From the NCBI GenBank assembly GCA_010015585.1, contig ML975151.1: DNA of 64,000 nucleotides. The stretch is one strand, 5' to 3'. Each line of letters starts with the position of its first letter. Within the stretch, counting starts at the first letter, position 1. Under the pieces are notes generated by a model. It was not told where the DNA came from. It saw only the letters and a list, made by a program, of their open reading frames with translations, and did not search any database. Below, piece after piece: positions 1 through 52,459 of the stretch. This DNA is from Eremomyces bilateralis CBS 781.70 (taxonomy: Eukaryota). Both the position numbers and the translations under genes were made by a program.

Positions 1-961
1 ATAATGGCGGAGGATAAACGGGCTTAACTCCGCTTAAGGAGACTGGAAGCTATTAAGTTATCGTTTGGACCGCATTATCGTTTAGAAGGTTGGCGCTAGA
101 TAAAGGATCTAGCGTCCACAATCGTGGATGAGGTAAGCTTCAGCTGACGAACCAGGGGCGCGGATACTTAGTCGCCGTATCTTGTAGATTACATAAGATT
201 ACATAAGCCTGGGTATATATACTATCGCAGACCAAGGTATCATCTATGGGAGCATAAGGCTACAAACTGCATTAATAATCTTGCCATGAGTCTCTTATAT
301 CTGCAGGGCCGGGGGATCAGGCATTCAGCTAGAACACACAACTTACACAATACAACAACTTCGCTGCTGTAACAACAGCACTATGGCTAGCGTGGGGGAA
401 ATTCTCAAAACTGGGGAGGGAAAATCTCACCAGCCGCCGACTATTGTTATGGGACGACACCTGATCCGGTCCTTCGATTGTCGACTTCAAACATTGTGTG
501 GACGGACGACGGGAAAGGGATGCAAGTGGGGTTGGAAATTCAAGATCGAGGCACTTGATTTCTCACCTTTCAAACCTTATGCCCCTGAGTCGGAGAATTC
601 TCAGCCTTGATTGATCGGGTCAGGGGTCCATAATGACGAAAATCCCCAGCTCCTTGCAGGGAAATCGATAAATCAACGCCTCATCTTCCCATTCCGTCAG
701 CTGTTTACCTAGGACTACTCCAAGCGAGACCAATCCATACCAACAAACGGGGCACCTCCGATACCTTGATCAGTGACTCGATTGGACAATTGGCAATAAT
801 CGGGTATTTTAATGATGGGTCATGGGCGTTGCCTATATCCATCCCTTGTCCGCAATCCCATCATTCCTAGCTCAGGTTGAGTTTCCATCCTCTGTTGGAT
901 CTTCACACACGCCCCGCCTCTGGTCTCCGACCATGCAACGAATACCACGAATGTCGCCACG

Positions 962-2827: not shown

Positions 2828-3205
2828 CCTGGGGCGGTGGTTATCATACGATCGATGGATTGACGACTAGATAAGGAGATGTTTGAACGTTTGGTTGTTC
2901 GTCACGGCTGCACGCAATAGGCGTTATGACGATCATGATACCCAATTTATATTTGCAACACAGCCTGTATGTGCTTGTATGGCCCTCATAAAAGTCCTCA
3001 TTTAGTAGTCTAGTCACACAGCGTTTTCCTACATACCATGAACTCTATACACAAGTGCTTCGAGTCTACTCTAATCTCTTTCTTCTCATCTGATCGTCTG
3101 ATCGTACAGCGATGTTTTGATCTTAATCTCGCGCCACATAACCACCTTGCTTACATCACTCATTCTCCGCCTTCCGGAAATCCTCCGCATACACGCCACC
3201 CAGCT

Positions 3206-3900
3206 ATGAACCCCGTCCCTACCGTGCCGCCTGTGAAGGAAGCGTAATTGGGGATGACGATCCGACTGCCCGTCGGAGATCCTACACTATGTCAACACCA
3301 CGCGATTGATTCAAATGATGTAAACAAATCTCTGCCGTAATATGCTGATTCTCAATTCCTTGAGGCTGTTCCACCTCCAGGCGACAATCGATGGAAATCA
3401 CCACGCATGTGAGATTTGGAGGGGGAGATCAAGAAAATGTGGGGAATCTCCTGGGATGACTATAGGCTCCTACCAGGCTGGGCTGGAGGCTTGAGCGAGT
3501 TTGAGCGAACTCAAGTCTTATGTAATCGAGCCGCCCGACTCTACTCTACTCAGACTCGTCCAAGAACCTTCAACCTTGTCGAGCGTACTTGTCCCGTGGC
3601 TGCACCCACCAAATCAAGTGCAACTTCGCCTAGTATACTCTGTCATTCATACGTATAATGGGCGTAACGAGCCAATCTACGGCCGAGATCGAGAAAGATC
3701 GGAACACCGCTCGACTGGTACGGAAGAGGTTTAGCGGAAGACTCGCGACCCACGTAAAACGAACTGGAATATTGAGCAAGCATCAAGCGAGTCCTTGGCT
3801 AGCGCGTGCAAATGAAGCGAGCGGCTTGATTCAAGTCTCCAGCCTGGAAACTGGTATCAAGATATAGTTATGCCTGCTCTTGTAAATTTACCTAGAGATC
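3206..3900 (+). pseudogene. Decayed ORF of unknown family within a transposon-associated island
   Basis: A protein-like frame from the ATG at 3206 is interrupted by TAA, TAA and TGA (each one C>T change from CAA/CGA) and by apparent frameshifts. No family recognised. Confidence 0.3.
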
Positions 3901-4519
3901 AGTTCAGGGAGTCAAAATTTCTGGCTAGTCAATACTAATGGATAAACTCTGTCGTAAGTCCTATAAGTTAGTCCACTGTTGATGTTGATTCTTATCCTGT
4001 TCGGTTAGAGACTTAGAGTAGTCATCATTTACCCGACGGAGTGACGAGGCGGTTATGGAGCGTCGGAATTCATTCCACGGTGATCTTCCAAAGGTCGATG
4101 ATTCTCGTAATCATGTATTTCAGCCTTGCGGAGAGATCAAACGTTCGCCGTGAAGGAACCTGGTCCAGGGTGCACTGCAGTCTGGTTGTTCTTGCAGAGA
4201 GCGCTGCAGGGGTCATCTGTGAGTGCATCCCAAAACGGGATATCAGATGCATCGTGACTTCCTCCTTCGCCTCGTCGGGCAGGGGAGCCGGACCTTTTAG
4301 GTTTCGCACTTTCTTCACTTTATTCAACGTCGTTCGACCCAGCACGGTTCCAGCTTCTGAGCAGAAATCCATTCAGAGCGTCAATCGGGTCAGAGGAGGA
4401 TTCCCAGCTCCCCCAGTCAAGCGAGTGTTCAGTCGTGTCGCGTATTCCAAAGCACTATCTCGATCGATGAACACGAATACGACTCTGGAGAAGAAGCTGC
4501 AGTCGAAACTCTGTTAGGA

Positions 4520-5764
4520 ATGGCCCGTACGCGTGATCAATCAAACCGCAATTTCCCGTCATCAAGTCCTCGTCATAGTGAATCCGAATCGGAATCCGAT
4601 ATAGAAACGGATACACCATACTCTCGACGACGCAGACTTAGACGCAGGCAGATGCGAGTCGGTTTCGCGGATCCTCTACTGATGGTGTTGTTGAGTTACC
4701 TCGCAAGCGTCTGAAACGAGGTTCTGGTTTAGCAAATGTCCAAGGATTTGGTACCGGATCTCAACCTGGGATATCATCGCCTATTGCCAGCCCTGCTGCG
4801 AATTCAGCATCTCAATCAACCAATAAGATGTACAATCTATTCGGCAAGACTATGAAGATCATCCTCACGCTCATTCCATACCTTTGATGGGCTAGCACTT
4901 CCGAAGAAAACGACAGCAGCGAGCCTTGCGGATATCAATCGCGAGAAGATCTCGAGGTTGCGTAATCTATCGCCGAATCATAAGCAATGAAGCGGTTTAA
5001 AACTCTCGTCTATTATTATAAGACGAAGGCTTCGTTCTCTGCAGCAAAGATTGATAGCCGAACGAAACCTGTGGTTAAGAACGACATTGATCTTAGTACT
5101 GATAACGACGCTAAAGAATTCCACGCTATTTTACACTATCAGTATCATGAACTCAACCTACAAAACCTCAAGATTACCATTGAAGTTAAATATGGCACAA
5201 CTATGGAGCCATTACCGACTCTAGTCCCTATTCTCAGGCAATCGACAACCGCTGCAGCTTCTAGTAGTACCCTATCTTTGGCGCATCCTCCTACTCCGGC
5301 GGTACAAGCGATTACCACCGCCAATACAGATAAGAGTGCGGTCTTCTACTGAGACTCTATCATTATAGCCAGGCCCTACCCAGAACTTCAACTTCGGCTT
5401 CCCATCTATGGGTATGACGCCCTGGGGTATGCCGCCTACCACACCTATAGCAACTCAATTTCTAGTGCCTCCCAGTTCTCCAGTATCATCAGTCGATGGC
5501 TTCACGATCCGAGAGTTTTGTAAGTGGATAGATCAGGGCCGGCCTGAAGCGCAAAGGGAAGAGTTGATCAAGGTAGGCGAGGACCTTGATGATAAAGGTT
5601 ATACTATAGGCGATACGAATCTAGAGGCTCGCAGAAATCCTATCCGTCTTGCTGAGAGGCTGAATATCAAGGATGGTTATCTTAAGAGCATCGGTTCAAA
5701 GAAGCTACTCGAACGCTTTAAACGGTCGTTTATCAACCCTCCGGTCACTAGAGGGAGTAGCTAG
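4520..5764 (+). pseudogene. Decayed gene convergent with the transposase (low-complexity N-terminus, small helical C-terminal domain)
   Basis: Track ORFs 4520-4714, 4987-5352 and 5408-5764 join through frameshifts and TAA/TGA stops; the frame upstream of 4987 continues into it through stops. C-terminal part PSSPV...TIREFCKW...LDDKGYTI...LNIKDGYLKSI looks like a folded helical domain. Confidence 0.4.
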
Positions 5765-5829
5765 TAAACCATCGTGCCTTTTAAACGGTCTCGGATTTAT
5801 CTATAAATTAATACCATGCACATTATATC

Positions 5830-6875
5830 CAGACTTCAGCCACAGCGCTTGATGGTTTGTCCGGTCAGTAAAGCAACACATGCTGCCTTTAGAAACTCTA
5901 TAAACGCCGCCTCATAGCCTTCCTAAACTCTAGAAGCAAACCATCATTCCGATTCATCCAGCTTTTTAAGACATGGAACGAAGGCTCAATAGGATTTAAG
6001 TCTGGCGAGTATGGAGGCAAGTATTTAAGAAGACCACCCTTAGCGTCGCATAATTGGCGAATACCCTACTGCTTTGTAAGTTTATATGATAGCCAGGCTA
6101 AGATAGAAGACCTACCGTAATGCGATGAGTACTGCGGTTATCCATAATCAGAATAGACCGCGGACCAGGGAATGGATTCATTTTCAGTAAAACGCATTCC
6201 TGAAGCCATTCTTTGAATATCTCTCCATCTACGGCTGCCTTCACGATGAGGGGATCCTCTAGATAGCCATTGCTGTCGTATGCAGGAAGGAGGCTCCACC
6301 GTTCTATCCTCCGGAGCCATTGAACATCAATTGCTGGTGTACTACGAGGACTGTATCCATATTTGCGAAGGAGAGTCCTCTCGCTGCATGCGGATTCATC
6401 TACGAAGACTAACCAGTCTACTGGATAGTCTGGCATTTCAAGATACCATTCCCCTCGGAATATTTCATTGCGCTGTGCGGCATGTCGTTACATGACCTTG
6501 CGAGACATGTTGAGCTCCGCGATACAACGACTGATGGTAGGCTGGCTGACCCAGATGGACTAGTTGTCCTAGAGGAAGTACTGAAGTTCGTCCTGGTATA
6601 TCCCTGGCCGTATCAGAAGCTATCTCGAGATCGATATACATTGCGGGGGTAACAATAGGTCTAGGACCAGGGCGACGCGTTCTTATGGCGTAAATGGTCC
6701 TAGTCTCGCTCCATCGCTTCCTTAATCTCGTCATTGTATTCTTGTTTATACTCGTTGCGGCGATTATGTGCATATTGACTTGTCCAGCGTTGAGACGGTA
6801 CTCTATGTCGCGTAAAGTCGCATCTGAGACCTGAGACCTGGTAGCTGGGGGCTGGAAAGGAGGCATGGCTATCAT
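5830..6875 (-). mobile_element. Degenerate Tc1/IS630-family DD34E transposase gene with one intron (pseudogene)
   Basis: HTH-like N-terminal region (6875-6620), a frameshift, then LVFVDES...RWSLLPAY...NPFPGPRSILIMDNRSTH. After removing intron 6115-6066 it continues GIRQLCDAKGGLLKYLPPYSPDLNPIEPSF, giving exactly 34 residues between D and E. In-frame TAG/TAG/TAA stops are present. No TIRs found. Confidence 0.88.
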
Positions 6876-8398
6876 CTAAATAGATAAGTAGGTGTTCGCT
6901 GTCAATAGCTCCTCAAAAATACCTAAATTGATAAAGTAATGAACGTGGTGGTTGCTGCGTTGATATAATTGATGAAGTGCTCGTGTTGGCGGAGTAAAAA
7001 TTGCCAAGTCCGTCAAGGATCCTACCGTAACCTGAATATGAGAATACGCGTACGTTGATGAGATGATCTCGGGTGATCATTGCTGGTGATACTCGACGTC
7101 ATAAGTCAAAGGACCGTGCTGGATACCTACCTACTCAAGTACATAGACATTCAGTACTCGCAAGACGCAAGACGGGAAGAAATTCCTCGATCTTCGCGTA
7201 CCCTTGCCAGGTCAACCTGCGGAAGACGCGGAGATTTTGATGGGAATATCATGGGAATCTCAACAATTCGGTTCATCTATCAGCGATCATGACGGATGAT
7301 GTCCTGGAAACGCCACAGATTTCATGGGGTGTCTTCCGGGCTCCCATCATTGGGTGCCGATCCCTGGCAACTCAGTTCCCCTCCCTCGTTTCCTCCGTAG
7401 CCGGAGTAGAGTCACTACGCGGAAACATAAACCTAGAGTAAGGTACCCGTAGCTTTTAATTGAGAAGCTGATTTGATCTGATGAAGCCACGACCCGAATT
7501 TTCATGAATTAGAGGGGCAGAAAATGATACGGATAACCACAGACAGTGGGAGGCGAATCTGATGTGGTGGTGGGGATGGCATGACGTAAAGTTCGGGTGG
7601 TCTGAGAGCTAGCAATCGGGCCGTAGTTAGCGCTGGAATGATGTGGGGAAAGCTTGGATGCACGCCCAGGCAAGATTCATCTCATCAAGAAACTTGGTTA
7701 ACAACTACTTTATTCGATGAAGGGAATTTGATCAATGCAGATCAAGATGGGGCTGGCGATCGAATCGATACTGTGCATTCGGTACTGTGTACGGTGCTAT
7801 AGCTGGACTGTGACATAATTATCATCGAGCAATCCGTGTACGTCTGGTGCTCTGCCGTTTGCCTACCGCCCTGCCGTGTGAAGCAAGGGCAAGACACCTC
7901 ACAGGGTGTATGGCGCATGGAATGGATCTTCCCTATAGGGGAGGGACGAGACGATGTTTTGGGGACAGAACCATGGGACGACATAATGACGTCTATCAGG
8001 AGACACCAAGGCAGGAGCAAACCCCGATTTCTGTGGCGCGTACTTTCCCTGTATAATGTCATTGCCATGGTCGACAGATACACGGCACTTCCTGCTTTGA
8101 ATTATCTGTGACTGACAATAAATCCCCCCCCTTCTGTCCCTCTTCCTACAAACAATTTCGCCTTCCTCCAACTTTCCTCTCACTGTCTCTTCACTCAATC
8201 AATCCCATTCCATATACCCATTCTCATCAATCATCCATCAATTGCATGGTGGTCTCATTTTCACCCTTTCTATTTCGTTTGGTGGTACCCATTTCCATCT
8301 CACCAACTCTCAAAAACCCTCCAAGTCATCCCCTCATCCAGATCAAACCATTGCGTTGGACTCCAATCTGAACGAAGGACGGATCAAACACCGCCGCA

Positions 8399-23575: not shown

Positions 23576-24592
23576 TCACCCACTAACCTTCTCCTCAACT
23601 CCTCCACTCCCACCCCCACAAACCGCATTCACAAACTCATGATACTTAAACACCTCCCCTTTCCCCGCTACCCCCACCTTCCCAAACCCTTTATTCCGAC
23701 TAAACGCCCTTCTCCCACTAAACTCCCCCAACACCTTCTCCACCTCCCTCTCCCCCAACGCCCTCTCCCCCTCCTCCGGCGCCGTCGTCAACAACGCCTC
23801 CCGCAACTCCCGCACGTCCACCTGCCCACTATCATCCTCGTCGAACGCCGCCAATGCCTCCTTCAGCTCCATCGCCTCCGACGCCCCCTGCATCGGCGTC
23901 GCCAGCAGGTTTAGGTACGTCGCCAGATTTAGTGTAGTTGCGGACGTCGGCGCGAAGTAGCCGGATAGTGCGGTTGGGTGGTGCTCGAGACCGAGTTGCG
24001 AGAGCATGTCCGAGACGTCGGCGGCGGTGATCACGCCTGTGTTGTTGCGGTCCAGCACGCTGAAGGATTCGCGCATGGTGTGGAGGAGCGGCGCAGGGAG
24101 GTGGGAAATCGCGTCGGGTTTGGTGGTGGGTTTGGCGGTGGTTTGGGGGCTTGGTCGGGGGGGGATGGAGGCGAGGNNNNNNNNNNNNNNNNNNNNNNNN
24201 NNNNNNNNNNNNNNNNNNNNNNNNNNNNNNNNNNNNNNNNNNNNNNNNNNNNNNNNNNNNNGGGGGGATAGGTGGGAGGCAGTGTCGCGGGTGGTGAGCC
24301 AGGAGCGGTCGCCTTTGGTGGCGCTGGTGGGGGTGTGGTCGGGGGTTTCGGAGAGGTCGCGGGGTGCAGAGAGGTCGCGGTTTGCGGACGGGGTGGAATG
24401 CTTTAGCGGAGAGGTTGTTGGTGTCGCTCCTCGTACGGTTGAAGGAGATTTGCCTAGGCCGTGAGGAGAGTCTGGTCGGCGGAAGGGCGAGGCTCGAGGA
24501 GAGCTGAAGGACAGTGGTGAGGGTTTGAATGGGGAAGACTGGTTCAAGTTAGTCATCAGGTCGGTTTCTGGCCATATATGGATACGCACCAT
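23576..24592 (-). CDS. EF-hand protein, myosin II regulatory light chain-like (Rlc1/MrlC type)
   Basis: Ser/Pro-rich N-terminus followed by MRESFSVLDRNNTGVIT and ALAAFDEDDSGQVD EF-hands. First exon is ATG only, with intron 24589-24539. The gene spans the N gap. Confidence 0.78.
   Translation of the reverse strand: MVRIHIWPETDLMTNLNQSSPFKPSPLSFSSPRASPFRRPDSPHGLGKSPSTVRGATPTTSPLKHSTPSANRDLSAPRDLSETPDHTPTSATKGDRSWLTTRDTASHLSPXXXXXXXXXXXXXXXXXXXXXXXXXXXXXLASIPPRPSPQTTAKPTTKPDAISHLPAPLLHTMRESFSVLDRNNTGVITAADVSDMLSQLGLEHHPTALSGYFAPTSATTLNLATYLNLLATPMQGASEAMELKEALAAFDEDDSGQVDVRELREALLTTAPEEGERALGEREVEKVLGEFSGRRAFSRNKGFGKVGVAGKGEVFKYHEFVNAVCGGGSGGVEEKVSG
24177..24261. other. Assembly gap (85 N)
   Basis: Run of n flanked by G-rich sequence. 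Confidence 1.
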
Positions 24593-41798: not shown

Positions 41799-42416
41799 CT
41801 AATCATAGTACCTGCGATTCCCATGCTTATCAATATGGATCTCCGTCTCCCTCGTCCTCCGATACTCATCCCTCGGATCATGATACTCCTCCCTCACCCG
41901 ACTCCGACTCCGTGACCGTCCCCTACTAAAATCCGCCCCCCTCTCCTCCCTTGGCGCATCGATATACCGAAACGACTCGTAGTCCCCTCCACGGTGGCTC
42001 CTCGCCGGCGACACGTCCCGCTCATACCTCACCTCCCGCCTCTCATACCGATAATCATCCCGCTCCCGCCGAGGACTCGGCGACCGCATACTACTGACGC
42101 TGCTCCGCGGACTCGCATGCACATAGTGCACGTCGTGCGAATGCACGGGCGGCGGGGTCGGCGACTTGACGAAAACGGGGACCGGCTGCGGGGCGGGAAC
42201 CTTCAGCGGGGCGGCGGTGGGCACGGCGACGGTGGTGGGGATGGGGGTGTGGTAGTGGCCGGAGTGGCGGTGGTCGAGGTGGTGGTCGGAGTGGTGAGAG
42301 TGGACGGAGACGCGGGAGATGCGGCGGGGGGAGGCAGTGCGGTAGGTGGAGCGGCGGACGCGAGTGACACGGACAGGGGAGAGGTCGCGGTCTTCTTTGA
42401 CGTGGACGAGACACAT
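41799..42416 (-). CDS. Hypothetical Arg/Ser/Pro/His-rich protein
   Basis: 205-aa ATG-initiated ORF, plausibly coding (MCLVHVKEDRD...). No domain recognised. Confidence 0.6.
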   Translation of the reverse strand: MCLVHVKEDRDLSPVRVTRVRRSTYRTASPRRISRVSVHSHHSDHHLDHRHSGHYHTPIPTTVAVPTAAPLKVPAPQPVPVFVKSPTPPPVHSHDVHYVHASPRSSVSSMRSPSPRRERDDYRYERREVRYERDVSPARSHRGGDYESFRYIDAPREERGADFSRGRSRSRSRVREEYHDPRDEYRRTRETEIHIDKHGNRRYYD

Positions 42417-43740
42417 TGGTGCGAGAGGATGGGTGGAAGGGGTTGAGGATCGGAGGGGGTTCGGAGGGGAAGCGCTTGGGCGGAAATCGGTAAGGCTGAG
42501 TGCGGATAAGGAGGCTGACTGAGGGCTGGCGACTCTCGTGGAGTAGCGAATGCAGGGATTTCAGGGGTTGAGTTAAAGAATGGATTTAGAGTAAGTTGCA
42601 ACAATATCAACGCGGTACTTTCGCTAAATCAAGAGCCGCGGCCCTCCAACTCCAAAATGTGGGAACTGAGTTGTGATGAAGTTAAGTTCAGTTTGGGGGC
42701 CGAAGCTCGAGGTTCAATGAGGAGAGGAATACGGCGTACTATAGATACCAGCGAAGGTAAGTACTTCGTTGCTAACTACCTTATGTTAGTTGGGACCTCA
42801 AGTTAAACGGAGCTTGCTCTGCTGTCAATTAAATATAGAAATGAGTTCATGTTGAGTCCAGTCCAGCCCATCAAGATTTCCATCCCTCTCCCGTCTCTTG
42901 ATGCATCCTGGCACTGATCGCGATATGGTACTCTATTCACTAAACCATGGACTACCTTCTCGCTGATACCATTGACAGTGACCGATGCGTGCTTGACGAA
43001 TTCAAATAGGTTGATAATAGAGTCTTACTGTACCTCACGTAGTGTATCCCTTCCGACCATAAGCTCAAGAACATACTCATGCTTAGGCTACTGGGCCAGA
43101 AGGCAAACCGCAGTCTGTCCACTGACATCAGTCCCGCTTCTCGACAAGCCTTGGGTTAGGCTCTGAAATATTACCACAGGTTCAAGTCGAAGTCTACTCT
43201 TCGGTTCTGCACGATCCTCCCGCTCTCTGATCAAAAGTGGGGCCAAGCTGGTCGACCGCCGATGTGTGTGGACGGTGAAATTTTACCAGCAGCTGATAGA
43301 GCTTTGGCGAGGTTGCATGACGCCAGTTTAAGCAGCTAGGGATGCGTGTAACATCCATGGCGTAATGGTGTAATTGACGACCAATCGACAAACCAGATTC
43401 TTAGGGACAATAGATGGTACTCTAGTCTCGACCGCCTATAGCGATCGGGAGGAATCCACGGCGAATTCAGATTAGATGGGAGAGCGGAGCGCACGCACTT
43501 GCAGGCAGAAGTCCATTACGATTCCAATCTGTCCGTGTCGTCGTCTTGGTGAACCAAACCATATCGAGAAAGTGTAGATGCAACCGAATCATCTTCCCGC
43601 TCCCGAGAATAAGGACGTGCTCAAGAAATGCCCCATCCACCAAAGAGATCCAACATCCCAACACACCCCAACGACTTCAAAATAACGCCATGAAGTAAGA
43701 AACCCAACATTACCACTCCCTACCCCTTTCCTCCCCCACT

Positions 43741-44254
43741 TCACGGCTTCTTCTCTCCCTGCCCCATCAACTTCCCCAAAAACTCCTTCCCCTTCTCCAC
43801 AATCCCCTCCTCCTTCACCGGCTTCTTCTCTGCCCTCTCCACCTTCTCCCCTCCCACATTCGCCGCGCCGCCGCGCCCCGTATGATACACCTCCGGGTCG
43901 CCGCGCGGCACGGGCCCGACGTCCTGCGCGGCGCGTGCGATCTCGGGGTGTGCGGGGTCGTTCTTCGCGATGTTGCCAGAGCCGCCGCGCCCGGTGGTGT
44001 AATGGTCGGTTTTGATGGAGGGAGTGACGAAGTTGGAGGGGTCGGCGGGGGGGTGGGTGTCGGTGGCGATGTTGCCTGGGGGGGATTAGTTGGGGTGGTG
44101 GAGTGAAGGGGGTATGAAGGTGGGGAGACGATGAGATGCTCGATGAGGGGGATTGAAGGAGTCGAGGGAATGGAAACGGGTTGTGTGGAAGTGAATGGGG
44201 CTACTTACCGGCACCACCTCGTCCATGCGAGTGCTTTGGAACGTCCTCTGCCAT
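43741..44254 (-). CDS. Par32/DUF3602-like protein with GRGGxGN repeats
   Basis: Exons 44254-44209 and 44075-43741. Translation MAEDVPKHSHGRGGAG|NIA...YTTGRGGSGNI...YHTGRGGAAN...GKEFLGKLMGQGEKKP. Not present in the ORF track. Confidence 0.85.
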
Positions 44255-46798
44255 CCTGATCTCAGATATCTCGAATATCAACTTTCTTCAGATGTTCGTG
44301 GAGCGGTAGCCTTCGGAAAGGCCCCAGAAAGTTCCGGTATAGAAGCTGTGTGGGAGAAAGTGCCAACGCGGACCGATGGTTCGGATGTAGATATCACAAG
44401 GCAGACGTCGAAATATGCTCTTCGGCGGTGATCAATTTCTTCCGTGGGTCGAGGAACCAGACTTGCGGACCCAGACTTGGACGGTTTAATTATATTTCCT
44501 AGGCACCCAGCAATGTTGCAACCAAAAACGTCAAACGTGCGAAAACTGACAACATCCCCATTCCCTCGTCCAGCAACCGCCCCTCCTCTTAAATACATCC
44601 TCCTCCACCACCATAACGCCTTCGTGCCCCTCCACGTCCTTGGCCTTATCACCTCATCCCCAGTATTTTCCCTTCCCAACATCCGCCCGCTACAAATCTG
44701 CCAAATCGGCAAATTCTCGCCCAGCATGATTGCACGCCAAGCGTCCTCGCCAGCCGTCGGCCCCTCTCCCATTTTTCGCGTCCATGCGCATTCGTAGGGG
44801 ACGATGATTCGTCGATGCGACGCCAAGGTCCGGATGGGGAAACTATTACGAAATTGTTTTGGCGGAGGAGGCCAATGGGAGGGGGGGGAGGGGAGGTGGG
44901 TGCATGGCTAGCGCCGGGAATGGAGGTGGTGGTTGGGTAATGCTTGGGTTGCAGGTGACACACGGTTGGAGAATTGTGGGAGAATCATGATCGGCCAAGG
45001 AGTCTGGACCAAGACGATCTGAATACGACAGATATTTGGAAGGTAGCCCAGGTAGGTGACGCTAGAGCATGAGGCTCGTGGCAGAGTGGAGAAACGGTTC
45101 GACGGGGGAGTGGGGAGTTATCCTTGGTTTCGCATGGTGGTTTCGCATGGAGAAATCTGTTACAATTGCGATGTTGTGAAGAGAATGATAATCGTGATTG
45201 ATATCGATCTTGCTGGTGGTGCAGCAGCAGCTAGAATAAGCTCAGTATCGAGGCTATAGACGACTTAGAGATAGGTAATTGATGGCTCGTGCCTTGCTAC
45301 ATAGGAATGAAGCTTCTCTTTGACCCGTCTCAATTCGGAAAGATGCTTCGCCCATTCAAAATATCGAGCACGCGCCTCCAAGTAAAGTGAGCGCAAGAAT
45401 TAAGGAGAGGATGCTGTCAAGATAGTATAAAGTCATATAGAAAACGTTAGAGAGAGAGATTCATACGCCCGTCAGGCATCTCTGCGAGGCACATGTGGGG
45501 AGAAGACGTTAGAATGGACAGATCACAGATGAAATAGGTAACTACTGAGTCAGACATCTAATCATCTGATGGAGGCCCTAGTTATCTTAATGGAGCTAGT
45601 AGACCAGCACTTGTTTCCTTTGCTGACTAGCCGTATCGTGCAATCAGCAGTAATTCATACCGTGCATTGGTACAGCTAATTCTATGGTGTCGTAAGATTG
45701 ATGATAGCGAGATTGAGTTGAGATAAGGCGCCGACGGGAATGGAGCCATGTTGTACTGGGAGAATTGAGGGTCGAGGTCCCGCAATGCGGGGCACTGGGC
45801 AGCCCATGGAATTGGAATCTGATTTCAGTCGAAAAGGGGGCATTGCGGGGCAGTGGATTCATGACAATAGAATCAACTTCACGGTTCAATGACACATTGT
45901 CTTTTCCCTCCTCAGTTTCAATTCATCCACTCGACAAAGATAATATAGTACATGAGAAACCCAAAACCCAAGTCCCAACAACATAAGAAAAACCAAATCT
46001 CATCCTCTATGATACAGGACTCCTAAACTCCAAGATTGCTGCGTGAGATCCTTGCGGACCGATATATTCTATTCATGGCCATGGCCGGTCATTCATTCCC
46101 TCTCGCGAAGAATCGTGGTCTTTACATAAGTCATCAAGGAAAATCGCAAAACATATCCTCCCGCTGCTGTGATGATGGGGAAAAAACAAAGTTAGAAAGG
46201 CAGACGAGGAGGCTTGTCATATCTCGTCCGTGTGAGAAGCGAAGGTAGCAGAGAGAGCCTCACTGCAACAACCGCGCATGCGGAGGGTTGATTGTCGCCG
46301 CCGCATGCGCAGTCGGAGGAGTCGTCGATATCCGTGCTGGTGGGGTGGAGGGATCGATGTCGAATGGATGCATGGGAAGGGAAAAAAGATCCAGCCACGA
46401 ATCGTAGGCGCGCAGACGCCGTGGAACGGTGGAACAGACGCAGACACCGGACTATGGGAACCGTTCAGGAAACCGAAGGTCGTGAGACGAATCCGAGACC
46501 CAGGAAGGCAAGCTGTTTTTTTATGCTTTTGTTCGATAGGATGTCGTGGTTCCAAGGAAGAAATTCGGTCGCGATCGATGAGGATGGTTGGAGTGATTAT
46601 CTGCATTCCGAGATGTCCTTCTCTTTCGTCCGCTCGTCGTAGGCTTTGCGCCGGGCAATTTCGGTTGGATGGAATTGCATCATGAGTCTTTGTTGAATCG
46701 TGAATGTTCATGATGGAGCCTGGAGGACCCGGCGACGATCAGGCATCAGGATGACCGGGGTGCCGGGGTGGGCTCTGATTTGACGACTCAGGTGCAGC

Positions 46799-47038
46799 TT
46801 AGTTGCCTGAACAGGAACATCATTGTCAGTCGCTGAACTTTGGTTCATACTTCGGGATGAGATGTTAATTACCTGCACCATCGCGCGGTTGTCCTTTGCG
46901 GGTATATGATCGTGATGAAGAGCCGTTGGGCTCGAAGAAAATGGCTCCAGGGCCATTTCCGGCGCCGTCCCTTGGTCGGTCTTCCTTCATGTTGAGCGTG
47001 GGTTTGGAGAGGCGAAGGGCGAGGGTGAATTCAGTCAT
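46799..47038 (-). CDS. 57-aa micro-protein with two PRDGAGN motifs
   Basis: MTEFTLALRLSKPTLNMKEDRPRDGAGNGPGAIFFEPNGSSSRSYTRKGQPRDGAGN*. Canonical intron 46872-46807 (GTAATT...ACTGAC...TTCAG), upstream TATATA, and ATC-ATG start context. Confidence 0.7.
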
Positions 47039-47172
47039 GATGAGTGTTTCTGGGTCTGGAATGATTCGATTGAGTTCAGATGTGTCGATGAGTATATTGA
47101 AGCTTTGAATATTCAGTTTGGTGTTGAGTGTAATGAAGGAACGCTCGATAGAAAGGCAGCAAGAAGTAGAGG

Positions 47173-47178
47173 TATATA
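47173..47178 (-). promoter_or_regulatory. Putative TATA box of the PRDGAGN micro-gene
   Basis: TATATA about 135 bp upstream of the ATG at 47038. Confidence 0.4.
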
Positions 47179-49800
47179 TGTATGCTCGGCCAGCGGGTCA
47201 ACAGCGACGACTACGTCGAAACAGGCAATTTCCCTTGTATTAGCGGCCTCAAACCTGGGAAAGGCATACAAAGGCAATAGAACCATCAATTACCATCCTC
47301 TCACCGTGAGTGGCCCAGCTAGGTGCTGCCTAACATCGGTTACTCTAAAGGGCGATTTGGGAGTCATGAGCAGGCCGCACAGCCCGCAACGACCTGACCC
47401 GAGGATCCCCAATTATCGCCTTACATTGGTAAGTTATGACTGAACGGGTAACAAAAGTCGATACATAGCCCAAACGCTCTCCAATTCACACCGATGTGGG
47501 TGTCAATGTTGAAAACAGGGCGAGTGGAGCGGTGGTGGTGATGGGCGGAAAGGCAACTTTGGGGAGGTGCTGCGCCATCCTACCTATTGAGCAGGCATGG
47601 GACGTTAGGACGCGATGGGCGCGACGGATCTCAGGTCCTCGGTCACCATCAGAGGTTCCGGCGGTCTGCGCCTGCGCAAGACAGCCTGCTGCGATTGGAA
47701 ATCGTGGTCGAGACCAATCATTTGCGCGTGTAAATTGTCGACTCACAAGAAGGACGATGTGGGACGGATGCCTGTCCACTAGTCCGATGGTTCTATGGTT
47801 TCTAGAAGGCTTTGGCGAGCCAGAGGGCGTGGCACGGCCTCAATGATCACGCCCGTGCTCAAGATGCGGAATTTTGCCAATGTGCATTATGGTCCTCATG
47901 ACCGTCCGGTCGCGATGTTGAGGGGAGTTTCAGGGGGTGGTGGTGGTGGAGCAGCGCGGTGGAAGTTTCGACGTGGTGAGAAAACGCGATGCGACGCCAA
48001 CTCGCGCCCACGTCGCGAACTCGTGATCCAGTCCTCAATTCTGGCCAAAATCTCAAACGCTGCGCCTCAGTTTCGAGGAAATCATTGGCCGCCTGCAGCA
48101 TTAGCCACAGATGGAGAATGGATGGGACCCCCCACACAGCCCCTACCGGAGTCAATGAACAATGAGGCTTGACCCCCCTCCCCCATCACGAGGAGGCGCC
48201 CAGACGGTGAAGGGATTATGAGACTGACATTTAACCGTCCCGTCGCCCAACTTTCTCCACCCCACCGGGCCCAACTATTTCGTCACGTCGTCTCGGTCAG
48301 ATTGAAGCCCTGTTTTCGGTTCCTCGTTCACCGCTCTGGGGCAGGCGGATGGGAGACACGCTTCGCGGTATGCGTGGGGGATTGTCGGTCCTGCGACATG
48401 ATATGCAGTCCCCGTACAGTCCAGACCGAGCGGTCCACCGGCGTGAGACTTCCCTGTTGCTCCAGGGTGACGTTCATACCTCGATTCTGGTCCGTCAAGT
48501 ATCAATAACCCGCAGGCCGCATCGTGCAGGAGGACTCAGAGGCAGCCGGTTGAGTGCCGACTTACCTACTGATTGGGCACAAGGCATCTTCCTCCGTCCT
48601 TTTCCCAATTGTTGTAGCCTGGAAAACGCCTGATGACTGGCACCGCAAGTGAAGGACCTTGTTCCATCGGGCATCCAATTGTACAGCCTCATGCCCGTCG
48701 CATCTTGGCTTGAGTCACCAGTCTGTTCCGCCCTGATTATTCATGTCAGATGTCGGAGGATGGGACAGCGGCCCAGTGACGACAGACCCGCAGAGCCTCA
48801 TGACAGTCGGAGGACCGTCGTTCCGTTTTCTGGTCGTCTGTTGATGTTCCGGCGTTGGCTCGATCCTCGTCCTGCGAGGGTGCGGGTCCCTGGCATTAGC
48901 GGGGTGTCATTAAGGGACAGCTCCCAAGCATGTCTGACTTGCTGGCGCTCCAGAGCACGAGGGCTCAGGCTACATATTTCACGGACTGGCTTCGATCTTC
49001 GGATTGGTTATGACTTATGAGAAAAATTAATGACGTGTGAGGGAGTACGTGACGTTGAATATTAGGTTTCTGTATACAATAGGCCGTTTGTTCATCTATT
49101 AGCGGCTGTCCGCAACGGACTTGTGTTTGACACTCATCCAGGCTCCTGGTGACGACTGACGAGGAGCTTGGGGGGACTTCGAAGCTCGCCGAACCGCGTC
49201 AGCTGTAGAAAGAAACGTCATGTGCAGTCCCTTAAAATCTATCCGTAATGACAACTAGGAACATATACTGAGTAAATACAATCATAGGGTTCAACCTTTC
49301 ATGATATCCATGAATCCATCGCAAGGACCATCCGCCCTCACCGAATTGAGCTCTTCATCAAACTCCTCGCAGTGGCTGTCGAACGCGACGAATCACAAGC
49401 CCAAAGCTATATGGCTCGGGGAGGACGGGTTAATGCTACCCGGCGTCAATCAATTGGAGACGGAAAAGGGAAACAAAGAAATACGCACGTCCAAGTCCGA
49501 ATCGAAATTCGCAGATCAGGATTTCCCCAGGATTTCGAGTTGATCCCTTCTCGGCTCTCGTATTTAATTTGGGAGGGTCTCCTTTTCTTGCAGCTCGCAG
49601 CTCGCAGGCGTTTATTACCCACAGATTCCCCAGAGTGAACTTGTTCGTCACTCCACCGTTTGTCCATCACCTGCAGTGATCAACAACAACCCTCACGGAT
49701 CCACCTCCTATCTACTTCCTACACCAACCAACTTCTCACCACTCTCTCCTCCTCCAACTCTCCAATTCCATCCAAAACTATCATCCACCCCAATCTCACC

Positions 49801-50501
49801 ATGCACTTCACCACCGCCGCCCTCCTCTCCTCCCTCGTCGCCGTTGCCGTTGCGCAAGCAGACGTCGGACAGCTTCCCGAGTGCTCAGTATGACAATCCC
49901 ACCCCCCGTTCCACAGAACCTCCCTCGCTAACCGTCCGCTCCCTGCAGCGCTCTTGCGTCGGCGCCAGCTTCGGAGGCTGCGGCCCCATCGACATCAAAT
50001 GCATCTGCAGCAACGAGGCGCTGATCAGCGACCTCTCGTGCTGCGTCGCGAACCGCTGTAGCCCGGAGGATCAGCAAGGTACGGCTCCTTCCGCTCCAAA
50101 ACCCTACCCCTTGCATGGTTCCCAGCTCCCTCCCCATAGGACGATAAATCTATCCATCCATCCAACTCCTCCGCTAACACCTCCATCCAGCCACCATCGA
50201 CTTCGCTGTCAACCTCTGCCGCACCTACCAAATCTCCGTCCCCACCTCCGCCTCCTGCCCCGCCGGCTCCGAGCCCACCTCCGGCCCCGAATCGTCCGCC
50301 AACCCCGAGTCATCAGGCGACGCCGCGCCGACCAGCGCCGGCGCCTCGGGGAACGGGACCTCTGGCGGGAACACGACCGACGCCGGGAGCGCTCCCGCGG
50401 GCGCGACGCCGCCGGCCGCGACGAGCAGTGGGTTGGCGGGGAGAATTGAGGCGGGGATGGGGGTTGGTGCGTTGGTTGCGGGGGCGTTGTTGGCTTTGTA
50501 G
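49801..50501 (+). CDS. GPI-anchored CFEM-domain cell-surface protein
   Basis: Exons 49801-49887, 49949-50078 and 50191-50501. Signal peptide, CFEM Cys pattern LPECSRSC...GCGPIDIKCICSN...LSCCVANRCS...NLC, Ser/Thr/Gly stalk and hydrophobic C-terminus. Confidence 0.92.
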
Positions 50502-50777
50502 AATGGGGATATGGGATGTAAAAAGATTTGGGGGTATGTTAATTAAGGAGAGTATATGAACGATGTTTGGAAGGTGTGGGCGAGCTTGGTGCGCTTTCGT
50601 TCGGTGTGCACTTTGACCTTCCTTTCAAAAGAAGCCCGATATTTTCTAATTTACTTTCTCTTTCTCCAATCTGGCATGTTATATCTCATTGTGACTTGTT
50701 CGTTGGACAGATGGGTAGGTAAAGACAATGCCAAATATCCATTGACCATTCCACCACCTAATCGCATCTGTCATTGT

Positions 50778-52459
50778 TTAAATGATGATCGGATTGTACC
50801 AACTGAAGACACAATTTGGGTCCCACTTCCTCTTAAGTGCCCTCAGCCTCTCCAATTTCCGTGCTCCATACATCGCCTCCTGGGAGTCATCGCCCTGCGC
50901 ATAATTCACATAGACCTTCGTCTCTTCAAACCCACTCGTCGCTCTAAACCGCTCACGAACTTCATTTTTCCATTTATTGACCATCGGCTGAAGTTGGGGA
51001 TCCGTGGTCTGATGCCCGATGATCCTGGATATCGTTAGCGTTGATTCTAATTAATTCCATCTCCTGCGTGTTCCTACATCTGGCATTTGACGTCGCGATG
51101 CGGATACGCCGTCTCGTCATCGGGAATCTCCGCCATCTTCTGCGACCCCCATGCTTCGATGATCGCGACGCTGCCACGAAGCGCCGGATATTCCTCCCAG
51201 TACCTTGCCAGCTCCGCAAAGTACCACTCGAAGGTAGGCAGATCGAGCTGTTTGACGTGCGCTGAGAACATGGTCCTGGGCATGTTGCGGATGGAAACGG
51301 TCGCATCCGCTCCGAATCCCCATTTGGTGTTGATTTGGTTCCAGGGCAGGTAATCGATCTGCTGCAGGGTAGGGCCGAGGTCGATGATCGGTTGGATGAG
51401 TCGCTTGCCTTCGTCGAGGTCTCCGGTATAGATGTAATTGACGAGCATGATCGGCTGTGGGTTGTTAGAGCTACGTGTCTGGCAAAATCGCGGCGCTAGG
51501 AGGACCGCTCACCCCACCGGCTTTCTCATCGTAGAACTGCCCAACCGCCACGGATAATTCCGGAGGTTGGTCTTCGTGAATCTCCTGCAGGATTCGGATG
51601 ATCTCTGGGCCATTATTATGCGGGAGGACGAAGTCCGCGGACATCACGTTCCCCCCATTCTGTTGATCGTAAATTTGATACGTCGCTTTCATAACGATCC
51701 CGAAGTTGAATCCAGCGCCGCGCATGCCCCAGAACAACTCCGTGTTCTCCGTCTTGCTCGCTTTGACAAAGTCTCCTGTAGCAGTGACGAGTTCGACCTC
51801 CAGGAGAGAATCGAGGAGTAACCCGTAGGTGCCTTGCATTCGGTTGAGACCCCCGCCAACTTAGTTAGAATTTGAGTCAGTTAATGGGTTTCAGTATGCA
51901 TGACCATATGCCTCTTACGAGTTACTCCGACTATGCCGACTGTAGAGCATGCTCCCGTCGCTGACGAAGTCAGCGTTATATCTCACAAATCAGTGGACAA
52001 ACCGTTTACATACGCATTTCTTTACCAGCTTCATGGAGAGGGTCGAAAATCTCATTGAAGAGGACGGCGCCTCCAACCGTGATCGTACTGGCACTGGCAT
52101 CGATGGAGACACCCTTTAGATTGCTGATATCCACCTCGAGTAGGTTCTGTGCCCTTTCATAACATGACGAAAAATTATGGCCTGTGGCCACGGCGTGGAA
52201 TGGGATGTTGTGCTCGGTAGCGCATTTAACCTGTCCCTTGGTTATTCTCTAGGTCATTTCCCAGTGCCAGGAGGCTTACCGTGGTCTGTATGTCTTCAAC
52301 CGTTGCAGGCTTCACCGTCGCAATGAATGAAGGTGCCTGAACCGTCGTCCATCTAGTATGCCCGATGCTTTCGGATTTGTCGGCGGCGAGCGCATATTCT
52401 GATTGAGAAGAAAGACGACTCTTGAGTAAAGAAATGATCTGAGGACCGGTCAATTCCAT
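50778..52459 (-). CDS. FAD-linked oxidoreductase (VAO/BBE family, FAD_binding_4 + BBE)
   Basis: Multi-exon, first intron 52279-52231. Motifs VKPATVEDIQ, ATGHN (FAD-linking His position), GTYGLLLDSLLEVELVTATG, LFWGMRGAGFNFGIV and YVNYAQGD...LRALKRKWDP. Confidence 0.9.

What the first reader, a model, noticed from the sequence alone, without database searches (positions are those of the whole stretch)
46799..47038. Hidden 57-aa micro-protein with a duplicated PRDGAGN motif, one copy at the exact C-terminus
Seen: it falls below the ORF-track length cut-off and sits in a ~5.5 kb otherwise gene-free interval. It has a TATA-like box, a canonical intron, and two perfect PRDGAGN heptapeptides encoded by different codons (CCA AGG GAC GGC GCC GGA AAT versus CCG CGC GAT GGT GCA GGC AAC). 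All seven codons differ synonymously, which argues for selection on the peptide and against a recent DNA duplication. There is no clear signal peptide. Inference: a conserved short-linear-motif micro-protein or repeat-type peptide precursor of unknown function; I cannot assign it to a named family.
Basis: partly seen in the sequence, partly recalled or inferred. Interest (0 to 1): 0.75.

Follow-up and report, generated by a model that had tools for sequence, protein, structure and literature searches.

The report
Spliced micro-protein gene with Par32-like motifs
A small, transcribed and spliced fungal gene encodes a floppy 57-residue protein whose twice-repeated seven-residue motif is kept in one other fungus and resembles the repeat of a known family of nutrient-transport regulators, a member of which lies next door.

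Summary
A 57-codon ORF (47038..46865, minus strand) carries two PRDGAGN heptapeptides written in different codons. Spliced and unspliced readings give the same 57 residues.

One credible relative exists among 1.84 billion representative proteins (P0001, E 1.1e-5). All 17 motif-block residues are identical in it, against 14 of 40 elsewhere. That argues for selection on the peptide.

A very highly expressed DUF3602 gene lies 2.6 kb away on the same strand, with three GRGG[AS][GA]N motifs, the Amu1/Par32 repeat. Its intron splits the motif at the same codon position as the micro-gene's intron.

My reading is a real micro-protein, probably a shortened and altered offshoot of that family, acting through its two arginine-bearing motifs. 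It fails the family's formal tests (pattern, Pfam, repeat number). No alignment beyond the motif supports kinship. Translation is untested, and the long leader and trailer are uncomfortable for an mRNA. I found nothing for a peptide-precursor reading. I rate it a new variant of a known kind, of moderate interest.

The parts
46873..47038 (-). Exon 1 coding part of the micro-protein gene: ATG at 47038, through the first base of the Gly56 codon
   Evidence: Sequence; ORF list; covered by X3 contig record 11 with 0 differences
46807..46872 (-). Intron of 66 nt, phase 1, GTAATT...ACTGAC...CAG; it splits the second motif between GAG and N
   Evidence: Sequence; X3 contig joins 46805/46872, skipping 66 nt, CT..AC on the + strand
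46799..46806 (-). Exon 2 coding part, GC AAC TAA: completes Gly56, then Asn57 and the stop
   Evidence: the spliced transcript gives the same 57 aa
46865..46867 (-). TAA stop used if the intron is retained (GGT AAT TAA); it gives the identical protein
46955..46975 (-). Motif copy 1, PRDGAGN, followed by GPG; the 10-residue block is identical in P0001
46868..46888 (-). Motif copy 2, PRDGAGN, at the C-terminus in the unspliced reading. When spliced, its last 5 bases come from 46806..46802
45930..47490 (-). Extent of the spliced RNA contig (1,495 nt after splicing): about 452 nt before the ATG, with 7 upstream ATGs, and about 870 nt after the stop. True transcript ends are not known
   Evidence: record 11, depth 501
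47171..47180 (-). It lies inside the RNA contig, so it is at best an internal or alternative promoter
43741..44254 (-). Neighbouring canonical DUF3602 (Amu1/Par32-type) gene of 126 aa. Exon 1 is 44254..44209, the 133-nt intron is 44208..44076, and exon 2 is 44075..43741. It has three motifs (GRGGAGN, GRGGSGN, GRGGAAN); the first is split by the intron at the same position and phase
   Evidence: Pfam PF12223, E 1e-17; sequence; spliced reading; X3 depth up to 17,464 and loose ends at 44076/44208 that read into the other exon

Best explanation
This is a real two-exon gene for a 57-residue, basic, intrinsically disordered micro-protein of a filamentous ascomycete.

Shown: the locus is transcribed and the 66-nt intron is removed. 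The protein is the same with or without splicing. One relative from another, unnamed fungal source keeps an open frame. In that relative both motif blocks (PRDGAGNGPG and QPRDGAG) are unchanged while the rest has diverged.

Inferred: the ORF is translated, and its working parts are the two R-D-G-A-G-N motifs.

Inferred with less certainty: the gene is a shortened, altered offshoot of the Amu1/Par32 (DUF3602) family, whose members carry 3-6 GRGGAGN repeats. A canonical member lies 2.6 kb away on the same strand. In both genes the intron sits inside the motif, after the first base of the Gly codon that precedes Asn.

Proposed mechanism, by analogy only: in yeast Amu1/Par32 the motif arginines are needed for binding and inhibiting the Mep1/Mep3 ammonium transporters and for an unidentified partner. 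The micro-protein has two such motifs but none of the long regulated regions. It would dock on the same kind of partner as a minimal binder or competitor of the full-length neighbour.
For: Transcription and splicing:
- X3 behaves as RNA. It has four intron-like GT..AG skips, and its depth runs from 0 to 17,464 while the DNA run X1 is flat at about 155.
- Its 1,495-nt contig, at depth 501, joins 46805/46872.

Coding:
- The repeat is not a DNA repeat (14 of 21 bases identical). It arose in 0 of 200 simulations.
- P0001 is the best of 3 hits at E<=1e-3 among 1.84 billion representatives (E 1.1e-5). With the two-sequence profile it scores E 1.2e-31, which is partly circular.
- It hits the window only at 47077..46871 at E<=0.01 (E 1e-12).
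- 17 of 17 motif-block residues are identical against 14 of 40 elsewhere (Fisher 1.9e-6). All alignment gaps keep the frame.
- The codon log-odds of the ORF's frame is +0.085 per codon, the best of the six frames. Off-frame windows have a 95th percentile of -0.11. The 164-aa downstream ORF scores -0.11.
- The ATG has A at -3.

Family link:
- The neighbour is PF12223 at E 1e-17. It fits the published family pattern G-R-G-G-X-[AG]-N-X(30,110)-G-R-G-G-X-[AG]-N.
- The shared core R-x-G-[AS]-[GA]-N occurs 5 times in the six unspliced frames: 2 in the micro-ORF, 2 in the neighbour and 1 elsewhere. A sixth copy spans the neighbour's intron. The expected count is 0.62.
- The junctions are GGT GCC G|gt..ag|GC AAC in the neighbour and GGT GCA G|gt..ag|GC AAC in the micro-gene.
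- P0001 ends ...GAGK, as an unspliced G|GTAAG.. would read.

Disorder: the AF2 model has mean pLDDT 59 and pTM 0.13.

Motif function in yeast: read in passages of PMC4501750 and PMC6249832.
Against: Translation and expression:
- There is no ribosome-profiling or peptide evidence.
- The RNA evidence comes from one run of one study, as assembled contigs. The strand rests only on the intron's orientation, and the transcript ends are unknown.
- If the contig is the mRNA, the ORF sits behind a 452-nt leader with 7 upstream ATGs and before about 870 nt of trailer. That is unusual for a translated small gene and would favour decay.
- Codon usage is only weakly gene-like. By the mean 0.24 and sd 0.14 of real 57-codon windows it sits about one sd below the mean.

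Conservation:
- There is only one relative, and its DNA could not be fetched, so there is no dN/dS.
- The exact sequence is not in the 15-billion-protein collection.
- In the related genome X4 a syntenic contig bridges the region with 4,401 unlike letters.

Family link:
- Pfam gives no DUF3602 match for the 57 aa or for P0001 even at E<=10.
- BLASTP against the neighbour gives E 3.5, on unrelated residues.
- tblastn with the neighbour's protein lists 15 chance-level matches, none at the micro-ORF.
- The best local DNA alignment does fall on the junction, but it scores no better than shuffles: 207 of 300 reach it, and 93 of 300 for the spliced forms.
- The motif differs at two of seven positions (G1 to P, G3 to D). 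There are 2 copies, not 3-6, and 22 residues between them, not 30-110.
- GCA G|G is also a natural proto-splice site, so independent intron gain is possible.

The binding or competitor mechanism is pure analogy.
Confidence: 0.48

Rival explanations
1. It is a real, translated micro-protein with two conserved motifs, but unrelated to Amu1/Par32/DUF3602. It would be an orphan or de novo gene. The resemblance of PRDGAGN to GRGGAGN, the intron position and the neighbourhood would all be coincidences.
For: All alignment-based tests of kinship failed: Pfam, BLASTP at E 3.5, tblastn, and DNA alignment no better than shuffles. Two of the seven motif positions differ, among them a glycine of the GRGG core. 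GCA G|G is a proto-splice site, so an intron could have arisen there independently.
Against: The core R-x-G-[AS]-[GA]-N is expected 0.62 times per window. Of the 5 unspliced copies, 4 lie in these two small neighbouring same-strand genes. The single intron of the micro-gene falls at one particular base inside the motif, the same base as in the neighbour. That is about 2 chances in 174 if placed at random (inference).
Confidence: 0.2
2. The 1.5-kb spliced transcript is a non-coding RNA and the 57-codon ORF is not translated to any useful extent.
For: The leader has 7 upstream ATGs and the trailer is about 870 nt. Pfam finds no family for the 57 aa or for the downstream frame holding the 164-aa ORF. 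Codon usage is only weakly coding-like. The locus is not annotated as a protein in the collection. The protein atlas gives a low recognition score of 1337, which by its own text is weak evidence.
Against: A non-coding RNA gives no reason for two sites written in different codons to spell the same heptapeptide in one frame. It also gives no reason for both to be kept letter-perfect in a relative whose other residues are only 35% identical and whose frame stays open. No Rfam family reaches E<=1 in 45930-47490.
Confidence: 0.15
3. It is a decaying, still-transcribed remnant of a duplicated DUF3602 gene, cut short by a stop straight after the motif's Asn, with no function of its own.
For: The stop codon replaces the Ile that follows Asn in the neighbour (GC AAC TAA against GC AAC ATC). 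A further weak look-alike of the neighbour's intron end and exon-2 start lies at 47943..47907 (score 31, reached by 0 of 200 shuffles). That hints at past local duplication. The trailer is long and ORF-poor.
Against: Neutral decay would not keep 17 of 17 motif residues, the start codon and the open frame in a relative that differs at 26 of 40 other positions. The variant P-R-D form is the same in all four copies of both species. No relic motif is left in any frame of the trailer.
Confidence: 0.1
4. It is a cis-acting regulatory small ORF whose nascent C-terminal motif stalls ribosomes at the stop and controls a downstream ORF or the stability of the RNA.
For: The conserved motif lies exactly at the stop codon. 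A long region follows, containing a 164-codon ORF at transcript positions 714-1208.
Against: The 164-aa ORF has non-coding-like codon usage at -0.11 per codon, no Pfam family, and is not in the protein collection. The internal motif copy would be unexplained. The last residue differs in P0001 (K against N) if that protein is read as it stands.
Confidence: 0.04
5. It is a repeat-type precursor of processed or secreted peptides, the reader's alternative (a RiPP or Kex2-type precursor).
For: There are two identical heptapeptides. A dibasic RK (RR in P0001) lies three residues before the second copy.
Against: There is no signal peptide and no hydrophobic stretch over 4 residues. No dibasic site precedes the first copy, and there is no cysteine. 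The 38 long ORFs scanned are housekeeping-type genes (PI4-kinase, synaptojanin, eIF2A, TRAPP, Sec10-like, CFEM and others), with no DUF3328/UstYa, oxidase or peptidase gene.
Confidence: 0.03

Closest known systems
Amu1/Par32 of Saccharomyces cerevisiae and its fungal family (GRGGAGN(I) repeats; PMC4501750 and PMC6249832, passages read). Pfam DUF3602/PF12223 is, from memory, the same family
   Same: Both are fungal, cysteine-free and predicted to be disordered. Both repeat a glycine-rich heptapeptide with an invariant arginine and a terminal asparagine (R-x-G-A-G-N is shared). A canonical member lies 2.6 kb away on the same strand, with an intron at the same position and phase inside the motif.
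   Different: The micro-protein has 57 aa against about 126-295. It has 2 motif copies, not 3-6. The motif is P-R-D-G-A-G-N, not G-R-G-G-x-[AG]-N, and the spacer is 22 residues, not 30-110. It has no Pfam hit and no detectable similarity outside the motif. It lacks the phosphorylated regions and the lysine-rich C-terminus that the papers describe for Par32. The second motif ends the protein.
The window's own DUF3602 gene (43741..44254, minus strand)
   Same: Same strand, 2.6 kb apart. Both are small, both are spliced once, and in both the intron sits between GAG and N of a motif copy. Both are expressed in run X3.
   Different: The neighbour has three canonical motifs, a lysine/glutamate-rich tail and about 35-fold higher contig depth (up to 17,464 against 501). 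Parts of it are laid in the related genome X4, whereas the micro-gene region is not.
MicroProteins (miPs) in the plant sense: small single-domain relatives of larger proteins that act by competing for partners (recalled concept; no paper read here)
   Same: It is a very short protein that keeps only the interaction element of a larger family.
   Different: No interaction has been shown here. The element is a linear motif rather than a dimerisation domain.
GRGGYN-repeat fungal micro-protein noted earlier in this scan (e1-7555904 and e1-7555907; AI notes, unchecked)
   Same: It is also a small, disordered fungal protein built on a GRGG-like repeat, and those agents also compared it with Par32.
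   Different: It has a different motif, seven copies, 82 aa, and comes from another genome. I made no sequence comparison.

Membership tests
Amu1/Par32 family (PMC4501750) | At least two matches to G-R-G-G-X-[AG]-N separated by 30-110 residues (the authors' search pattern) | tested here: not met
   The micro-protein has P-R-D-G-A-G-N twice with 22 residues between. The neighbouring gene does meet the pattern, with motifs at residues 44 and 82.
Amu1/Par32 family (PMC4501750) | 3 to 6 motif repeats per protein | tested here: not met
   There are two copies.
Amu1/Par32 family (PMC4501750) | A conserved arginine in every motif copy, needed for function in yeast | tested here: met
   Arg23 and Arg52 are present in the window and in P0001. 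The functional need is taken from passages read.
Amu1/Par32 family (PMC4501750) | Intrinsically disordered, low-complexity protein | tested here: inconclusive
   The AF2 model has mean pLDDT 59 and pTM 0.13, with only a 7-residue helix. The alignment had just 2 rows, so low confidence is expected anyway. GRAVY is -1.0.
Amu1/Par32 family (PMC4501750) | Binds and inhibits Mep1/Mep3-type ammonium transporters; phosphorylated through Npr1 | not testable with these tools
   This needs experiments, and no transporter sequence of this organism was available.
Pfam DUF3602 (PF12223) | Match to the family HMM at or above 21 bits | tested here: not met
   No match even at E<=10 for the 57 aa or for P0001. 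The neighbour scores 64.9 bits.
Pfam DUF3602 (PF12223) | Shared gene structure with a family member (intron inside the motif, phase 1, before Asn). This is not a formal criterion; I used it as a homology marker | tested here: met
   with RNA support for both introns. Only one family member could be compared.
Kex2-processed repeat peptide or RiPP precursors of fungi | N-terminal signal peptide; dibasic sites flanking each core; tailoring genes nearby | tested here: not met
   There is no hydrophobic N-terminal stretch and only one dibasic site. None of the 38 long ORFs matches a tailoring-enzyme family. No dedicated signal-peptide predictor was available.
Lipopeptide (a-factor type) pheromone precursors | C-terminal CaaX box | tested here: not met
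   The protein has no cysteine.
Known RNA families (Rfam 15) | Match to a covariance model | tested here: not met
   Only two sub-threshold matches to animal lncRNA models appeared, at 44528-44912 and outside the transcript.

The most novel reading that the evidence does not exclude
A tandem regulator pair. A full-length Amu1/Par32-type protein and, beside it, a 57-residue derivative that keeps only two altered copies of the binding motif (RGG changed to RDG). The derivative would act as a constitutive competitor or mimic at ammonium transporters, or at the still unknown motif partner. This would be a fungal micro-protein layer on nitrogen and TORC1 signalling, born by truncation of a repeat protein at a motif-splitting intron.
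Probability: 0.12. Interest if true: 0.7.

Novelty: new variant of a known kind. Interest (0 to 1): 0.5.

Why it matters
The GRGGAGN repeat of Amu1/Par32 is essential for that protein's control of ammonium transporters and of TORC1 reactivation. What the motif binds is still unknown (PMC6249832, passages read). A natural 57-residue protein reduced to two variant motifs would be a minimal, tractable probe for that partner. It would also show that the family spawns micro-protein offshoots. More generally, this is an unannotated fungal small gene where RNA splicing evidence and motif-level conservation agree, the kind of gene that standard annotation misses. If translation fails to be shown, it is simply a spliced intergenic transcript with a curious ORF.

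Tried and rejected
Whole genome: none is held for this window, so paralogues could not be sought.

Protein searches:
- The 57 aa against proteins of 31-100 aa gave nothing. The two-sequence profile against 31-104 aa gave 1,028 candidates, none scoring E<=10.
- The profile against longer proteins found only P0001.
- Of the 3 hits of the representative search, P0002 and P0003 are long repeat proteins matched over 25-36 residues. I dropped them as spurious.
- Exact look-up found the 57-aa, 164-aa and upstream 57-aa ORFs absent from the collection. P0001 is a singleton on a 934-nt JGI contig.

Both are off-frame GC-rich stretches sharing only DGAGNGPG and were rejected. P0001's own contig was not returned, so its DNA, intron and dN/dS remain unknown.

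Sequencing runs:
- No RNA holder is listed as such; X3 is labelled 'RNA?'.
- X5 laid nothing. This is no evidence of absence.

Intron origin by tandem duplication: the last 66 exon bases against the intron score no better than shuffles (174 of 500 reach it). Rejected.

Other searches that found nothing:
- Protein atlas, twice: no usable hit.
- Earlier findings by place, sequence and relatives.
- Papers: 0 with PRDGAGN, RDGAGN or PRDGAG and 0 with DUF3602 or PF12223. A search on microprotein, fungi, disorder and GRGG gave nothing relevant in the 10 listed.
- The genome search for PF12223 via a locus handle was answered with an error, as the record is not held. That Par32 itself belongs to PF12223 therefore remains recalled, not tested.

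The bacterial-type promoter and terminator scan is not meaningful for a fungus.

Full report
**What is in the sequence**

On the minus strand an ATG at 47038 opens a 57-codon frame that ends at a TAA at 46867..46865. The heptapeptide PRDGAGN occurs at residues 22-28 and 51-57. A GT at 46872 starts a 66-nt stretch with a good branch-point match (ACTGAC) that ends in CAG at 46807. After it come GC AAC TAA (46806..46799).

Spliced, the frame therefore reads G|GC AAC TAA. Unspliced, it reads GGT AAT TAA. Both give Gly-Asn-stop, so the protein is the same 57 residues either way. In the unspliced reading six differ, and 14 of 21 bases are identical.

This is the only heptapeptide with five or more different residues that is repeated within 100 residues of an open frame in the six frames of the window. 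None arose in 200 Markov-2 simulations of the window.

**Is it expressed and spliced?**

No whole genome is held. Three public runs hold the 2-kb stretch around the ORF. Laid on 42000-51000, run X1 behaves as the DNA source: its depth is flat at about 152-159 and it has no skips.

Run X3, labelled only 'RNA?', behaves as RNA:
- Its summed contig depth runs from 0 to 17,464.
- It shows four short skips with GT..AG or CT..AC ends (51, 66, 61 and 112 nt).
- Illumina adapter tails appear at loose ends.

One X3 contig of 1,495 nt, at depth 501 and with no differences from the window, covers 45930-46805 and 46872-47490. That is exactly the predicted intron removed, in minus-strand orientation. No intron-retaining contig was listed.

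These are contigs from one run of one study. They show presence and the joint, not transcript ends, level or strand beyond the intron's polarity. Taken at face value, the ORF lies at positions 453-626 of the RNA. It sits behind seven upstream ATGs, which include another 57-codon ORF, and ahead of about 870 nt that hold a 164-codon ORF.

**Is the ORF coding?**

A phmmer scan of 1.84 billion representative proteins gave three hits at E<=1e-3. Two are long repeat proteins matched over 25-36 residues, and I set them aside.

The third, P0001 (E 1.1e-5), is a 126-residue 'hypothetical protein' on a single 934-nt JGI contig. Its first 67 residues look like read-through from the contig edge. From its first Met on, it aligns with the whole micro-protein.
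- The blocks PRDGAGNGPG and QPRDGAG are identical: 17 of 17 residues.
- Only 14 of the other 40 query residues are identical (Fisher one-sided 1.9e-6).
- All gaps preserve the frame.
- Searched back against the window, its only match at E<=0.01 is 47077..46871 (E 1e-12).
- It ends ...GAGK. That is what an unspliced G|GTAAG.. would give, so it is compatible with an intron at the same place (inference).

Codon usage was scored against ten Pfam-supported long exons of the window. The ORF's frame scores +0.085 per codon, the best of its six frames.
- Real 57-codon windows have mean 0.24, sd 0.14 and a 5th percentile of 0.002.
- Off-frame windows have a 95th percentile of -0.11.
- The 164-codon ORF scores -0.11.

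Two sites spelled in different codons give the same peptide, and both are kept in a diverged relative with an open frame. That is hard to explain without translation, but translation itself was not observed.

**What it resembles**

The protein is 6.2 kDa, with pI about 10 and GRAVY -1.0. It has no cysteine and no hydrophobic run over four residues. Its AF2 model is of low confidence throughout (pLDDT 59). Pfam finds nothing.

The context gave the lead. The region 43505-44708 is the most deeply covered in X3. A frame there matches Pfam DUF3602 (E 1e-17). Read with its intron (44208..44076, 133 nt), it is a 126-residue protein with GRGGAGN, GRGGSGN and GRGGAAN. The intron is supported by X3 loose ends at 44076 and 44208 that continue into the other exon.

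GRGGAGN(I) is the repeat that defines the fungal Amu1/Par32 family, as read in passages of two papers.
- The authors retrieved the family with the pattern G-R-G-G-X-[AG]-N-X(30,110)-G-R-G-G-X-[AG]-N and found 3-6 repeats per member.
- Mutating the arginine of all four motifs abolished cell-surface localisation, Mep1 binding and Mep1/Mep3 inhibition (PMC4501750).
- The motifs are also needed for nuclear accumulation and for TORC1 reactivation through an unidentified partner (PMC6249832).
- That Par32 itself is a PF12223 member is my recollection. The window's neighbour satisfies both definitions.

**The link between the two genes**

PRDGAGN shares R-x-G-A-G-N with this repeat. The relaxed core R-x-G-[AS]-[GA]-N occurs five times in the six unspliced frames of the window: two in the micro-ORF, two in the neighbour's exon 2 and one elsewhere. 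A sixth copy spans the neighbour's intron. The expectation is 0.62, with a maximum of 3 in 100 simulations.

The neighbour's intron also cuts its first motif at the same base. The neighbour reads GGT GCC G|gt...ag|GC AAC ATC, and the micro-gene reads GGT GCA G|gt...ag|GC AAC TAA. This explains why exon 2 of the micro-gene begins GC AAC. That the retained intron also reads Asn-stop looks like a local accident of a GTAATT donor.

The two genes are 2.6 kb apart on the same strand.

**Evidence against kinship**

These results must be stated as fully:
- Pfam gives no DUF3602 match for the 57 aa or for P0001 even at E<=10.
- BLASTP of the two proteins gives E 3.5, on unrelated residues.
- tblastn with the neighbour's protein lists 15 chance-level matches, none at the micro-ORF.
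- The best local DNA alignment between the genes does fall on the junction (13 of 15 bases; 12 of 13 when spliced). Its score is reached by 207 of 300 and by 93 of 300 shuffles.
- The micro-protein fails the family pattern, the spacer rule and the repeat number.

I therefore do not file it as a member. I rate descent from the family as somewhat more likely than not.

A weak further trace of local duplication exists. The stretch 47943..47907 resembles the neighbour's intron end plus exon-2 start (score 31, reached by 0 of 200 shuffles).

**Other readings**

- A peptide-precursor reading lacks a signal peptide, flanking dibasic sites and any tailoring gene among the 38 long ORFs scanned. Those are housekeeping-type genes.
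- A non-coding RNA reading fits the long leader and trailer but not the peptide-level conservation. Rfam has nothing there.
- A dead remnant would not keep 17 of 17 motif residues.
- A stalling uORF would need a credible downstream ORF, which the 164-codon frame is not.
- Intron birth by tandem duplication was tested and rejected.

**Comparison with earlier notes**

Two unchecked AI notes from another genome describe a GRGGYN x7 micro-protein and also name Par32 as the closest known. I did not test them. They suggest that small GRGG-type repeat proteins may be a wider fungal theme.

**Verdict**

It is best seen as a transcribed, spliced, motif-conserved micro-protein gene. It is probably a truncated variant of the Amu1/Par32/DUF3602 kind, presumed to act through its two arginine-bearing motifs on the same class of partners. 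The function is unproven. I score interest at 0.5.

Noticed in passing
window 43741-44254 (-): An intron-containing 126-aa DUF3602 (Amu1/Par32-type) gene with three GRGG[AS][GA]N motifs. It is the most deeply covered stretch of the 9 kb laid in RNA-like run X3, with summed contig depth up to 17,464 against 330-600 for its neighbours.
   Followed up: yes
window 47907-47943 (-): A 37-nt stretch resembles the end of the DUF3602 gene's intron plus the start of its exon 2 (...CAACATCGC.ACCG). The local alignment scores 31, above all 200 shuffles (maximum 29). It may be a relic of another duplicated copy. It has no splice acceptor and no open frame with a motif.
   Followed up: partly
window 42392-43556 (+): An X3 contig of 1,114 nt has a 51-nt GT..AG intron (about 42927-42977) on the + strand. 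Only short frames (95 and 82 codons) lie there, with no Pfam match. This looks like another unannotated small or non-coding transcription unit.
   Followed up: no
window 46262-46336: An imperfect 25-nt inverted repeat with two CGCATGCG cores (46262-46286 and 46298-46322) lies in the trailer of the transcript. It overlaps a 25-nt island (46312-46336) that is the only piece of the whole 44-49.9 kb interval laid, in syntenic order, in the related genome X4 (1 mismatch).
   Followed up: no
window 45449-45501: The DNA run X1 jumps from about 155 to 6,965 summed depth in the bin 45311-45611, and many contigs break here with unlike loose ends. The sequence starts with a short (GA)n run. It is probably a short high-copy or low-complexity element.
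   Followed up: no
window 48331-49887 (+): One X3 contig runs unbroken from 48331 into the CFEM-domain gene (ATG 49801, signal-peptide-like start, introns at about 49888-49948 and 50077-50188). This is either a leader of about 1.47 kb or a second transcript abutting it.
   Followed up: no
window 44867-44957: In the DNA run X1 two pairs of 60-nt contigs differ by one letter, at depths 69 against 9.3 and 77.6 against 4.5. They are minor variants or errors next to a G-rich run.
   Followed up: no
window 24177-24261: A run of 85 N (an assembly gap or a masked stretch) inside the frame of an EF-hand gene.
   Followed up: no
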